Source: Octopus vulgaris (taxonomy: Eukaryota). Taken from it: a DNA stretch of 64,000 nt. The DNA is taken from positions 28,024,001-28,088,000 of the forward strand of contig OX597818.1 in assembly GCA_951406725.2 (NCBI GenBank). The letters are read 5' to 3'. The position numbers are program-made. Shown one piece after another: positions 30,801 to 33,800 of this stretch (positions within the stretch are counted from its first letter, which is position 1; each line of letters begins with the position of its first letter).

Positions 30801-33800
30801 ACATACAGTTATCCAGAGTTACCAAAATCAAAGGACGTGAAGCCGCCGAACGCTGCGACCCGCATGCAGAACGCGGTGGCTGCTGCGACAGCCCATACAC
30901 ATCGGTTTCAGTCTAATATTTGTGTCGCGACCAATGCGGAAGGTGGCGGAGACGGTCGCGGATGTAAGGCGCGCTGGAGAAGGCGTGCAATCGGTCCCGG
31001 GACGTGCACGAGTGAGCGGAAGAAGGCGAGCTATCTACCGACGACGAGGTCAGATGCATGTAGGCTGCAGTATCCGCTGGGCGCTGGGCGGCCTCCGCCA
31101 AGCGCGGTCCATAGCGTAACAGAAACTTAGTCGACCGGCTCGTACTCCTTATAATTGTCCGGACTCCCTCGGGGTGCGACGGCCACCTAGAGTGTGGATT
31201 TCCGCCGCTGGTTTCTCGACGTTTACCGGACCGACCATGTTGCAGTATCGACTACGGCGTCACCTTTCGGCCAGCACCTGACGCCAGGCTAGCAGAATCG
31301 GCCGTGGTCGCGTCCACGCAGACGCGGACGTTCATGCAGGAGGATATAACGCCTGCCGCCGGGCATCGTCAGCAGAGCGTCGAGGAGTGGTCGGAAGGTG
31401 GCGGAGACGGCCGTGGAAGGAAGGCGCGCCGGAGACGGAGCACAGTCGAGTAAGGGCGGACCGGGACGGACACAAGAGAGCAGAGGAAGGCGAACTATCG
31501 GCTGATAACAATCACAGACGCGTGAAGGCAGCCTCCGCCAACTGCGGTCGGCGGCTGTAGAAGGAAAGCAGACCGGAGACGGAGCCTGTTCGCGTGCACG
31601 TGAACCGGGACGCAAGCTATCGGTCGATGACGAGCGCGGATGTTTGTAGGAGTCGGTGACCGCCGACAGGCTCGTACCCGCTATAGTAGTGTGGATTCCC
31701 TTGGAGAGCTACAGTCACCAAAATCGTGGCTTGTCCCTGTCGACTTCTTGGCATTTGCCGGATGCACCGAGTTGCGGTATCGACCACACCCTCGAGTGCG
31801 GCCGGCAACACCCACTAGGCTGGCAGCATCATCGCGATCGCGTTCACCCCGTTTAATCGCACCTCGTCCCAGCGCACACACACTCTTGCTCAATACCGCC
31901 CACTGACGACAGCGATGACCTTTCCACACGCAATATCGACCGTGCGCACCGCGTGCAGTCGGTGGCGGCTTTGCCGCGTTGCGGCAGAAGACTATGGCGA
32001 CAACGACGAGGACAACGACGACCACTCAGGGCGCATAACACATTTTTTGCTTAATTTTTTGTAGTATCACTTTTTAGAGTCCATTTTTGAATAAATTATT
32101 TTAATAACAAGATTGTTAAATAAATTTTTTTAATTTATATAATTTGTCTCTATACTGAATCATGTACTAGGGTTGTTCAGAAAAGGCAATTGCCAAAAAT
32201 TCAAATATTTTAACAGTCAATTTTCTCTAATGCATCCAGTGCTTTGCTCGCAGACGCGCATCAAGCACCAACAGGGAGATCGTACACCTCCACTGGCCGA
32301 TCAAACTCTTCCATCAGAAGAGAAATGAGCGACTGGTACTTGCATACTTTCTCTAGAGCGTTCTCGAAAAGAACGGTCATATCAACGACTACCAATTCTC
32401 AGGACTGCTAAGGACAAGTTTTCCTTGTACCGTGTGATCCTGCATGTATTAGCTGTGATAGGATGCCGGTGGCGTACGTGCAGCAACCTACCAACAGCCG
32501 TCAAAAAAGAACAGCTACAGTGATCGCACTGGAAGGGAAGCTGAACAGAGTTGGATGCATTAGAAACCAACGCACCACTACATTTACTAGCGTGGCATCT
32601 CATAGAGTGGGGATGCTTGCTCTCCCTATCGCATTTCTCGCACTTGTATACCGGCTTTATGCCATGTGTATACTCCACATGTTCCCCCCATCGTCGAGGA
32701 GAAGAGAAGAATCAAGGACATAGCGAACAGAGTATAGAGTTCGATGTGCAGGGAATCATAAGAGCATATTCATCACATGTGCAGGGAATCATAAGAGCAT
32801 ATTCAATCTAGCACGAACTCGTCTGGTCTACATCGTGAATATGTCAGTGTCGAGCGCATCACTCGACCACCGACATTGTCAGTCCTAACCAAAGTGGTAT
32901 CACAATTCGTACCGCGGGGTGGATATAATCCGTTATCCACCCCAGTTGGCCCGACATAGATGGGCCACATGCAGGGCCTGATCTGCAGGCCCTGTCCCTT
33001 ACCCATAGTCCACCGGTTTATCGGCGCCTGGCTGCCATATGTTTATCTGCTTTACGTTATTATTCATGTTATTGCGCAGCAATTTCCTCGAGAGACAGGG
33101 ATTACCAATTGAAGAATAACCTAAAGAGCAGCATGGGATCCACCACACCAAAGAAGGTAGAGATATCGCCAAACTACCACCTAAAATCTCTCCAACCAAA
33201 CTAGCTACACCCCATGGAACAAGCTGCGGTTAATCACCGGGCCCGATTGCTGTCCACCGGTTCCTGTCAAGGAACCACCTGTACAGCCAAAGAATCGCCC
33301 AACAAATGACCCTAACCCCAAACAATAAAGAGTCCCCCCCAACTATGCTGCAAGAAGTTGTAAGCCAGAGTTTGCCATTGGTCAGTTGGGAACCACTGCA
33401 GTATTGTGCCAAAAGAGCGCAGCCTATCTAGAAGGGCCGATTATTAACTAGCTGACATGGGACTCGTGTCGGTAAGTCCAGCGGTATCCTACCTAGTCCT
33501 AACGGGAAGCCCCCCCCATCTCCTAATCAAAATCACCAATATCTCTATAAGGTCTTCCCACAACTGTGACAAAGCTTTGGGTGAAATGGAAAATATTTAG
33601 CTTGTCCAAAGTGAGAGGGCCAATCCACCATGATTCATCTACCAGTATAGTCCCACCCACAGACGTAAGCTCTCTTACCGCGTCAAGCCATTGACCAGTG
33701 GCAGACTCCGGTTTACAACTTCGCGCGCTTGGTTGAATTTTTTTACTTTGACATTCAGAGCACTGGGCAGAAATCTCGTCGTGTCTGTGCGGCTTGGCCA

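What the first reader, a model, noticed from the sequence alone, without database searches (positions are those of the whole stretch)
32043..33721. Three-zinc-finger R2 element reduced to DNA-binding N-terminus plus endonuclease tail
Seen: CCHH-CCHC-CCHH fingers (32465-32730; one CGA>TGA stop; in-frame 33-bp duplication at 32744-32805) run within ~20 codons into RLE-type residues (VVVDMTVLFE..KY..L..PVGA). Myb, RT and zinc knuckle are missing, yet both UTRs are kept. Known: this finger set defines R2-A lineage elements, and non-autonomous short internally deleted R2 derivatives (SIDEs) exist in Drosophila. Inference: a SIDE-like ~1.7-kb derivative, and evidence for an R2-A lineage in this host.
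Basis: partly seen in the sequence, partly recalled or inferred. Interest (0 to 1): 0.7.

Follow-up and report, generated by a model that had tools for sequence, protein, structure and literature searches.

The report
Dead, gutted R2 retrotransposon in rDNA pseudogene
This is a broken, internally deleted copy of a ribosomal-DNA-specific jumping gene (R2, three-zinc-finger type) sitting in a decayed ribosomal-DNA fragment of what looks like an octopus genome, and it is an ordinary relic rather than a demonstrated new mobile element.

Summary
On the minus strand, three zinc fingers (CCHH-CCHC-CCHH, 32729-32463) run within about 20 codons into the distal part of an R2 restriction-like endonuclease (32401-32216). 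About 900 of 1218 R2 profile positions are missing, covering Myb, RT, the zinc knuckle and the PD motif.

The element abuts a 28S fragment at its 5' end. It lies in a roughly 6.3-kb decayed rDNA island (28792-35088) surrounded by LINEs and a mariner fragment.

By eye, the fingers are about 50% identical to published octopus R2-1 proteins. The first nucleotides of the element also match their 5' UTR start (supplement of PMC13188248).

The SIDE interpretation is not supported:
- There is one copy in the window.
- There is no 28S sequence at the 3' junction.
- The ribozyme P1 partner is deleted.
- There are several further indels, frameshifts and two TGA stops.
- The 3' UTR is unverified.

Copy number in the genome could not be tested. 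The best reading is a one-off decay product of a lineage-A R2 copy. Three-finger R2 in octopuses was already in print in 2026. Interest is low.

The parts
33705..33864 (-). 28S rRNA gene fragment (pseudogene) directly 5' of the element. It stops about 19 nt short of the canonical R2 site and carries a 6-7 nt insertion at 33717-33723.
   Evidence: Rfam LSU_rRNA_eukarya positions 2210-2244 match 33758-33724 (24.2 and 18.9 bits, below the gathering score). By eye against the O. sinensis 28S flank in the supplement of PMC13188248, about 19 mismatches in 142 positions, and the variable hairpin is of the octopus type.
32043..33704 (-). The whole internally deleted R2 remnant, about 1.66 kb.
   Evidence: It occurs once in the window.
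33617..33704 (-). Start of the 5' UTR with remnants of the HDV-like ribozyme core (P3/L3 and the 3' strand of P1, AAGAGAG, at 33676-33670).
   Evidence: By eye, 33681-33658 matches the start of the R2-1_OVu 5' UTR at 22 of 24 positions, and 33641-33618 matches a second conserved block at 16 of 25. No P1 partner lies in the 224 nt upstream. A generic descriptor scan gave 1 hit against 0.63 per shuffle.
32794..32868 (-). N-terminal motif (TLTYSRCRPDEFVLD) of cephalopod-type R2 proteins, in a different frame from the fingers.
   Evidence: tblastn with P0002, 11 of 26 identical, E 0.11. By eye it resembles R2-1_ORu. This evidence is weak.
32744..32809 (-). 33-bp direct duplication just upstream of finger 1.
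   Evidence: 29 of 33 positions identical. TRF did not list it.
32463..32729 (-). Three zinc fingers, CCHH-CCHC-CCHH, with all 12 ligands intact.
   Evidence: R2Tg E 2.5e-8; E 6.1e-26; P0002, 39% identity over 119 aa.
32712..32714 (-). In-frame TGA in finger 1.
   Evidence: Octopus R2-1 proteins and P0002 have R at this position (CPRHF), which fits CGA>TGA.
32402..32417 (-). Deletion junction between the spacer after finger 3 and the distal RLE, with a change of frame.
   Evidence: The R2 profile alignment ends at 32418 (profile position 211) and resumes at 32401 (profile position 1116).
32216..32401 (-). Distal part of the restriction-like endonuclease (VVDxT, K..KY, GA[TGA]). The PD motif is missing, and the second TGA lies at 32263-32261.
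   Evidence: searches (E 0.0097, best of 2056 ORFs; 16.1 bits, 0 of 2000 shuffles reached it), and the alignment with 7 R2 C-termini.
32043..32209 (-). AT-rich tail (21% GC) ending A-rich. It is a possible short 3' UTR or its remnant, but this is unverified.
   Evidence: Composition. No 28S follows it. No match to any R2 or Rfam family.
33865..34058 (-). Upstream copy of a roughly 195-bp direct repeat that brackets the 28S fragment plus element.
   Evidence: blastn: 143 of 213 columns identical, 35 gap positions, E 9e-21.
31846..32042 (-). Downstream copy of the same repeat. It begins at the first base after the element.
28792..30941 (-). 18S rRNA pseudogene (context).
   Evidence: Rfam SSU_rRNA_eukarya, 682.8 bits over model positions 1-1817, with the universal 530-loop letters altered.
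34655..35088 (-). 3' end of the 28S rRNA gene (model positions 3007-3399), decayed and cut off by a mariner fragment (context).
   Evidence: 78.2 bits. HTH_48 at 35323-35460.

Best explanation
This is a dead, non-coding relic of one copy of a three-finger (lineage A) R2 retrotransposon, most likely in an octopus-like host.

The copy once entered a 28S rRNA gene at or near the R2 site. This is shown by the 28S sequence at its 5' end and by 5' UTR letters shared with octopus R2-1.

The rDNA stretch carrying it then fell out of use. It now lies as a 6.3-kb island among LINEs and a mariner fragment. There it accumulated point changes, including CpG transitions, and many insertions and deletions.

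One of those deletions removed about 900 codons between the spacer after finger 3 and the distal RLE. Others removed the 28S/R2 junction itself, taking the ribozyme's P1 strand with it, about 40 codons upstream of finger 1, and whatever lay 3' of the RLE.

The relic cannot make protein: it has two TGA stops, at least two frame changes and no RT. It cannot cut itself out of a transcript, and it has no 28S 3' junction, so it does nothing now.

The anatomy, the family and the context are shown. The order of events, with the deletion coming after insertion, is inferred.
For: Family:
- The PDB search gave R2Tg, 9nl3 and 9nl2 as the top three of 27 sequences, each aligned across all three fingers.
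- The R2 profile scores E 6.1e-26 on the fingers and E 0.0017 on the RLE, at the right ends of the profile.
- The RLE tail scores 16.1 bits, against a maximum of 7.0 in 2000 shuffles.
- By eye, 56-58 of about 114 positions are identical to R2-1_OVu and R2-1_ORu, and the 5' UTR start matches at 22 of 24.

rDNA context:
- LSU positions 2210-2244 abut the element.
- SSU and the LSU 3' end lie on the same strand, and there is no rRNA elsewhere in the window.

Decay:
- SSU scores 682.8 bits over 1817 model positions, and its 530 loop is altered.
- The 28S fragment is about 13% off the octopus 28S by eye.

Many indels in the element itself:
- a 33-bp duplication;
- an 8-residue gap inside the RLE;
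- a frame change and a deletion of about 40 residues upstream of finger 1 (by eye);
- 12-13 nt inserted in the ribozyme core, by eye;
- the junction-spanning loss of 19 nt of 28S, leaving no P1 partner.

Other points:
- There is no 28S 3' flank anywhere in the window: 0 matches at up to 3 mismatches.
- There is a single copy in the window.
Against: - All 12 zinc ligands are intact, and the 121 finger codons hold no frameshift. By my rough calculation, not a tool result, that has a chance of about 0.3% if this part were as decayed as the 18S (about 17%), and about 4% at 10%. So the element may be younger than the island, or refreshed by conversion, which the simple 'decayed together' story does not explain.
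- The 53 nt of 28S nearest the element are also much better kept (3 mismatches) than the 95 nt further upstream (15-16 mismatches), by eye.
- CpG observed/expected is 1.1-1.4 in the island, so it has not undergone the CpG loss seen in the rest of the window at 0.34-0.46.
- The element ends exactly where the downstream 195-bp repeat begins. That is what an insertion with a target duplication would give, and it needs explaining under a pure-deletion history.
- Copy number in the genome is unknown, so a family of such deleted copies is not excluded.
Confidence: 0.8

Rival explanations
1. One reading: a SIDE-like non-autonomous R2 family. A deleted R2 RNA that keeps the 5' ribozyme and the 3' UTR is copied in trans by the protein of a full-length R2, and this locus is one of its copies.
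For: - The deletion leaves both ends of the element and removes nearly all coding capacity. That is the architecture of SIDEs (PMC3414825, section 5).
- The finger region is better preserved than its surroundings.
- The element ends in an A-rich run.
Against: - There is one copy in 64 kb.
- The 3' junction is not 28S.
- The ribozyme P1 strand is deleted and there is no alternative partner.
- The P3/L3 region is interrupted, by eye.
- The 3' UTR is unverified, and the end of the ORF was not found.
- At 1.66 kb it keeps about 1.3 kb of useless 5' coding sequence, whereas the Drosophila SIDE is 529 bp.
- No relative spanning the junction was found among longer proteins (86 candidates, none scored). 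That is weak evidence.
Confidence: 0.1
2. Ectopic retrotransposition. An unprocessed 28S/R2 co-transcript, already deleted or not, was reverse-transcribed at a nick in the spacer of a degenerate rDNA unit. Copying stopped about 160 nt into the upstream 28S, and the roughly 195-bp repeats are a long target-site duplication.
For: - The block of 28S fragment plus element is bracketed by direct repeats. The downstream copy starts at the first base after the A-rich 3' end, and the upstream copy ends where 28S begins.
- There is no 28S after the 3' end.
- A disabled ribozyme would favour read-through transcripts.
Against: - The repeats are only 67% identical with 35 gap positions. That is more diverged than the state of the fingers suggests for the insert.
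- 195 bp is far longer than the junction changes known for R2.
- The same geometry arises without retrotransposition from two deletions in three tandem units, or from template switching during repair.
- By eye, the upstream repeat may simply continue the 28S expansion segment.
Confidence: 0.2
3. Not R2 at all: a chance run of C2H2 fingers, or a fragment of another RLE-bearing clade such as NeSL, R4 or Hero.
For: - Most of the 351 hits in the representative library are ordinary multi-finger proteins.
- Pfam and the Atlas see only generic C2H2.
- No tree with R8, R9 or other clades was built.
Against: - The best solved-structure matches are R2 proteins, aligned across all three fingers including the unusual CCHC middle finger.
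- The RLE tail lies at the right distance and on the right strand.
- 28S sequence close to the R2 site abuts the 5' end.
- The 5' UTR and the fingers match published octopus R2-1, by eye.
Confidence: 0.02

Closest known systems
R2-1_OVu / R2-1_OSi / R2-1_ORu, the three-finger R2 elements of Octopus vulgaris, O. sinensis and O. rubescens (supplement of PMC13188248, Genome Biol 2026)
   Same: - The finger set and order are the same.
- They share finger motifs (IPC..SI.C.LCP.F, PVY.C, HS.RCH..KC.G, RH.HP..AN..RI).
- They have R where the window has TGA.
- The start of the 5' UTR is the same (22 of 24 against OVu).
- The 28S flank is the same, including the variable hairpin.

All of this is by eye.
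   Different: - Only about half of the finger residues are identical. The published octopus elements differ from each other by about 40% there.
- They are full length, in the canonical site, with both 28S junctions and a long GC-rich 3' UTR.
- The window copy lacks about 900 codons, the junction and the 28S 3' flank, and it ends in a 167-nt AT-rich tail.
- The spreadsheet cells were cut, so their RLE, most of the UTRs and their C-termini could not be compared.
R2Tg and other vertebrate A-clade R2 proteins with solved structures (9dou, 9nl2, 9nl3)
   Same: All three fingers align (E 2.5e-8 to 6.5e-7).
   Different: They are distant in sequence, and they are complete proteins with Myb, RT, knuckle and RLE.
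R2 SIDEs of Drosophila (R2Dwi_SIDE; PMC3414825)
   Same: An R2 with its middle removed and its ends retained.
   Different: - The SIDE is 529 bp and keeps a ribozyme that cleaves in vitro and a 3' UTR that folds like the parent's.
- It sits in the R2 site and is as abundant as R2, with under 3% divergence.
- None of these properties is shown here, and two (the 3' 28S junction and the ribozyme P1) are contradicted.
Degenerate R2 copies persisting in rDNA (for example Bacillus rossius, PMC4370867; seen as title and abstract start in the search listing only)
   Same: Non-functional R2 copies retained in rDNA-derived sequence.
   Different: In that case the degenerate copies still replicate through rDNA turnover. 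Here a single relic lies in a dead rDNA fragment.

Membership tests
R2 (three-finger, lineage/clade A) | Three N-terminal zinc fingers: CCHH, CCHC, CCHH (PMC5035012, introduction passage) | tested here: met
   Caveat from PMC13188248 section 6: finger number alone does not define the lineage, because some three-finger arthropod R2s group with lineage D.
R2 (three-finger, lineage/clade A) | Myb domain, reverse transcriptase, and thumb/zinc knuckle | tested here: not met
   Profile positions 212-1115 have no match in any frame of 30900-35300. There is no RVT_1 in the element. These parts are absent by deletion, so this is a fragment of a member and not a complete member.
R2 (three-finger, lineage/clade A) | C-terminal restriction-like endonuclease (PD...D...K) | tested here: inconclusive
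   Only the distal part is present (VVDxT, K..KY, GA-stop). The PD motif and the last 32 or so profile positions were not found.
R2 (three-finger, lineage/clade A) | Insertion at the R2 site of the 28S rRNA gene, with 28S on both sides | tested here: inconclusive
   The 5' side is 28S, ending about 19 nt before the canonical site (by eye). The 3' side is not 28S.
R2 (three-finger, lineage/clade A) | Placement within R2 lineage A in a tree (RT-based in the literature) | not testable with these tools
   The RT is deleted. No labelled R2-A, R8 or R9 sequences could be handed to the tools. Placement rests on best matches and comparison by eye with octopus R2-1.
SIDE (short internally deleted R2 element) | 5' HDV-like ribozyme retained and able to fold | tested here: not met
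   Core letters are present at 33681-33658. However, no 6-of-7 or 7-of-7 partner for the P1 3' strand AAGAGAG lies in the 224 nt upstream. The 28S letters that pair with it in mollusc R2s are deleted, and there is an insertion at P3, both by eye. The descriptor scan was at chance level.
SIDE (short internally deleted R2 element) | R2 3' UTR retained and ending at the 28S R2 site | tested here: not met
   The 3' flank is the 195-bp repeat, not 28S. The AT-rich tail has no shown homology to an R2 3' UTR.
SIDE (short internally deleted R2 element) | Many copies sharing the deletion junction, with low divergence and variable 5' junctions | not testable with these tools
   There is one copy in the window. 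No host genome, reads or eukaryote contig collection was on hand.

The most novel reading that the evidence does not exclude
Octopods harbour a non-autonomous, internally deleted R2-A derivative that is still copied in trans. This locus would then record its ectopic target-primed insertion, as an unprocessed 28S/R2 read-through transcript, into an rDNA spacer with a target duplication of about 195 bp. That would be the first SIDE-like R2 outside Drosophila and a case of R2 machinery acting off-site.
Probability: 0.08. Interest if true: 0.5.

Novelty: new member of a known kind. Interest (0 to 1): 0.2.

Why it matters
It matters little as it stands. The locus adds one decayed copy of a three-finger R2 to a host group where such elements were catalogued in 2026, and it shows how an rDNA fragment and its R2 passenger erode together outside the working array.

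It would matter more if the host genome held many copies with the same junction. SIDE-type parasites of R2 have so far been described only in Drosophila. R2 proteins of lineage A are also being developed for site-specific gene insertion, so natural off-site or trans-mobilised substrates would be informative.

Tried and rejected
- The RLE tail alone against PDB gave only two chance hits at E of 1 or more. Against Pfam it gave nothing.
- The word-indexed protein search for longer relatives of the finger peptide scored none of 86 candidates.
- A search from P0014 for named relatives gave nothing useful for taxonomy.
- The Atlas look-alike search returned only generic C2H2 clusters.
- Rfam found no ribozyme or R2 RNA family in the element, even at E up to 10.
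- My HDV-like descriptor gave 1 hit against a mean of 0.63 in 30 shuffles, so it is no evidence.
- A possible second RLE remnant at 34073-34186 reached E 1.7 among 2056 ORFs, and 3 of 2000 shuffles equalled its score. At DNA level, 62 of 300 shuffles matched its alignment to the first tail. I rejected it as chance.
- The large RT ORF at 24630-26654 is an APE-type LINE, not the missing R2 RT.
- I considered and dropped a reading of the C-terminus in a third frame (RKLTVKIFEFLAIAFSEQP) as the end of the R2 ORF, because no profile support appeared.
- No phylogeny with R2-A, R8 and R9 was built, because labelled sequences from papers could not be handed to the tools.
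Full report
WHAT IS THERE

The feature lies on the minus strand. Reading from 32807 downwards gives three zinc fingers:
- Finger 1 is CCHH (C 32729, C 32720, H 32681, H 32666) and is interrupted by TGA at 32714-32712.
- Finger 2 is CCHC (32642, 32633, 32594, 32582).
- Finger 3 is CCHH (32528, 32519, 32480, 32471).

A 33-bp duplication (32744-32776 / 32777-32809, 29 of 33 identical) lies just upstream.

About 20 codons after finger 3 the frame ends. One base over, the next frame reads ELVVVDMTVLFENALEKVCKYQSLISLLMEEFDRPVEVYDLPVGA. 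It then has a TGA (32263-32261) and continues CASASKALDALEKIDC.

IS IT MORE THAN CHANCE, AND WHAT FAMILY IS IT

The finger peptide was searched against all PDB chains.
- It matched 27 distinct sequences at E up to 10.
- The best three are all R2 retrotransposon proteins: 9dou_A R2Tg (E 2.5e-8), 9nl3_A (1.3e-7) and 9nl2_A (6.5e-7). Each aligns across all three fingers.
- The remaining hits are ordinary C2H2 proteins at E 0.004 or worse.

The exhaustive HMMER search of 1.84 billion representatives gave 351 proteins at E up to 0.001 and 12 at E up to 1e-10.
- Many are multi-finger proteins.
- From the 150 listed I picked seven of 1169-1341 residues: P0014, P0032, P0059, P0071, P0093, P0099 and P0136.
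- Each has a single matched finger stretch and an R2-type C-terminus. Six of the 150 met my RLE regular expression, and P0136 was added by eye.

A profile of these seven gave the following results.
- It aligns its positions 97-211 to 32771-32418 (E 6.1e-26).
- It aligns its positions 1116-1186 to 32401-32216 (E 0.0017 among six frame translations).
- A profile of their last 150 residues ranks the tail ORF first among all 2056 stop-to-stop ORFs of 20 or more codons in the window (E 0.0097; the next are at E 1.7 and 8.1).
- With the TGA read as X, the tail scores 16.1 bits. The best of 2000 shuffles scored 7.0, with 1566 of them returning a score.

On its own the tail found nothing in PDB or Pfam, so its identification rests on the profile and on its position.

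The second TGA sits where all seven proteins have the R of G-x-R-G.

About 900 of the 1218 profile positions are missing. These cover Myb, RT, thumb and zinc knuckle, and the PD motif of the endonuclease. The junction lies within 32402-32417.

THE rDNA CONTEXT

Rfam finds rRNA only between 28792 and 35088, all on the minus strand:
- the 3' end of 28S (model positions 3007-3399) at 35088-34655;
- a short 28S piece (model positions 2210-2244) at 33758-33724, directly 5' of the element;
- an 18S at 30941-28792.

The 18S scores only 682.8 bits over 1817 positions. Universally conserved stretches, such as the 530 loop, are altered, so it is a pseudogene.

The island is richer in GC (46-62% by segment outside the AT-rich tail). 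Its CpG observed/expected is 1.1-1.4, against 0.34-0.46 in the AT-rich flanks.

Those flanks are full of LINE fragments. They also hold a mariner HTH_48 fragment that abuts the 28S end.

COMPARISON WITH PUBLISHED CEPHALOPOD R2

The best named relative of a neighbouring LINE ORF is an Octopus bimaculoides protein (78% identity). That led me to look for cephalopod R2s.

The supplement of PMC13188248 (file 1, parts 28-29) lists R2-1_OVu, R2-1_OSi and R2-1_ORu from three Octopus species. It gives their 28S flanks and, in cut cells, the start of each protein and element.

These sequences could not be handed to the tools, so I compared them by eye.
- The window's finger domain is identical to OVu at about 56, and to ORu at about 58, of about 114 aligned positions. 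OVu and ORu differ from each other by about 40% over the first two fingers.
- Both have R (CPRHF) where the window has TGA, as does the stored relative P0002. P0002 aligns at 39% identity over 119 residues.
- The window's 33681-33658 matches the start of the OVu 5' UTR at 22 of 24 positions. A second conserved block matches at 16 of 25.
- The 28S fragment (33864-33705) follows the O. sinensis flank without indels through the variable hairpin. About 19 of 142 positions differ, and at least six of those are CpG transitions.

I conclude two things. The host is most likely an octopus or a close relative. The true 28S/R2 junction is at about 33705-33704, with the last 19 or so nt of 28S and about 4 nt of R2 missing.

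THE RIBOZYME

R2 RNAs free themselves from the 28S co-transcript with a 5' HDV-like ribozyme. In many lineages, helix P1 uses 28S letters upstream of the junction (PMC3774820, abstract and sections 12 and 16 read).

In the mollusc elements of the supplement, the letters after the P3/L3 hairpin (AAGAGAG) are complementary to the 28S letters CTCTCTT just upstream of the site. This is my reading by eye.

In the window:
- AAGAGAG is present at 33676-33670, but the 28S partner is deleted.
- No segment with 6 or 7 of 7 pairs exists in the 224 nt upstream.
- A 12-13-nt insertion also splits P3 from L3, by eye.
- A generic descriptor scan gave one unconvincing hit, against 0.63 per shuffle.

This copy cannot process itself.

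THE 3' END AND THE FLANKING REPEATS

After the RLE tail comes 167 nt of 21% GC. It ends in an A-rich run, and then non-28S sequence follows.
- The canonical 28S letters downstream of the R2 site occur nowhere in the window: 0 matches at up to 3 mismatches.
- The last 32 or so profile positions of the ORF were not found.
- The visible parts of the octopus 3' UTRs are GC-rich and longer than 1 kb.

So retention of the 3' UTR is unverified.

The block of 28S fragment plus element is bracketed by direct repeats, 34058-33865 and 32042-31846 (143 of 213 columns identical, 35 gap positions, E 9e-21). The downstream copy starts at the first base after the element.

Three histories fit this geometry:
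- two deletions collapsing three tandem rDNA units, in which case the 'repeat' is just the overlap of the spacer parts that were retained;
- template switching during repair;
- ectopic target-primed insertion of a read-through transcript with a long target duplication.

I cannot decide between them. The low identity of the repeats compared with the well-kept fingers argues against a duplication made at the time of insertion.

SIDE OR ONE-OFF

Drosophila SIDEs (PMC3414825, abstract and section 5) are defined by four things: position in the R2 site, a working ribozyme, a parent-like 3' UTR, and many young copies.

Here two of these are contradicted (the 3' junction and the ribozyme), one is unverified (the 3' UTR), and one is untestable (copy number). 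There is only one copy in the window.

The element also carries at least five other indels, so the large deletion looks like one event among many in a decaying sequence.

THINGS THAT DO NOT FIT NEATLY

- All 12 zinc ligands survive, and there is no frameshift within the 121 finger codons.
- The 28S letters nearest the element are much better preserved than those further away.
- The island has not lost its CpGs.

These points suggest that the element and its immediate flank are younger than the rest of the island, or were refreshed by conversion. I could not test this.

VERDICT

The family call, a three-finger R2, is right and is already documented for octopuses. The SIDE reading is unsupported. 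I rate this an ordinary relic, with a small chance of something more interesting that a genome-wide copy count would settle.

WHAT STAYED UNCHECKED

- No host genome, reads or eukaryote contigs were available.
- The supplement cells were cut, so the C-termini and most of the UTRs of the octopus elements were not visible.
- No tree was built.

Noticed in passing
window 28792-35088: A 6.3-kb rDNA-derived island, all on the minus strand. It holds the 28S 3' end, spacer, a 28S fragment plus the R2 relic, spacer, and an 18S pseudogene with altered universal positions. There is no 5.8S and no rest of the 28S. It is embedded in AT-rich, transposon-filled sequence.
   Followed up: partly
window 34058-33865 and 32042-31846: Direct repeats of about 195 bp (67% identical, many indels) bracket the 28S fragment plus element exactly. 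They could be a target duplication, the overlap left by two deletions, or pre-existing spacer subrepeats. By eye, the upstream copy may continue the 28S expansion segment.
   Followed up: yes
window 34073-34186 (-): The peptide ARNAVVVDATV... resembles the R2 RLE core. It is the second-best ORF against the RLE profile (E 1.7), but the DNA-level similarity to the real tail is at chance level (62 of 300 shuffles). It is probably chance.
   Followed up: yes
window 35107-35460 (-): An N-terminal fragment of a mariner/Mos1-type transposase (Pfam HTH_48, E 2.2e-8) ends where the 28S 3' fragment begins.
   Followed up: partly
window 24630-26654 (-): A 675-codon open frame of an APE-type LINE, with a shortened endonuclease and an intact RT. 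The best named relative is an Octopus bimaculoides protein at 78% identity, and thousands of relatives lie in unnamed marine records. It sits just downstream of the 18S pseudogene.
   Followed up: partly
window 57962-61010 (+), 62987-63643 (-), 47908-48576 (-): Further LINE pieces: an endonuclease plus RT in two consecutive frames, and two RT fragments.
   Followed up: no
window 40558-41446 and 42100-42224: Long degenerate (TG)n arrays that explain the GC skew of 0.55 in the 40-42 kb bin. Many sub-threshold Rfam 'mir-297 / mir-3149' rows across the window are the same kind of TA/TG low-complexity sequence.
   Followed up: partly
whole window: CpG observed/expected is 0.34-0.46 in the AT-rich flanks, 0.69 in the R2 relic and 1.1-1.4 in the rDNA-derived parts. 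The decayed rDNA has therefore not undergone the CpG loss of its surroundings.
   Followed up: partly
P0063 (stored protein) against window 33770-33723: The first 16 residues of this unnamed R2-like protein record are a translation of 28S sequence (14 of 16 identical to the window's 28S fragment). Its predicted ORF therefore reads in from the rRNA gene.
   Followed up: no
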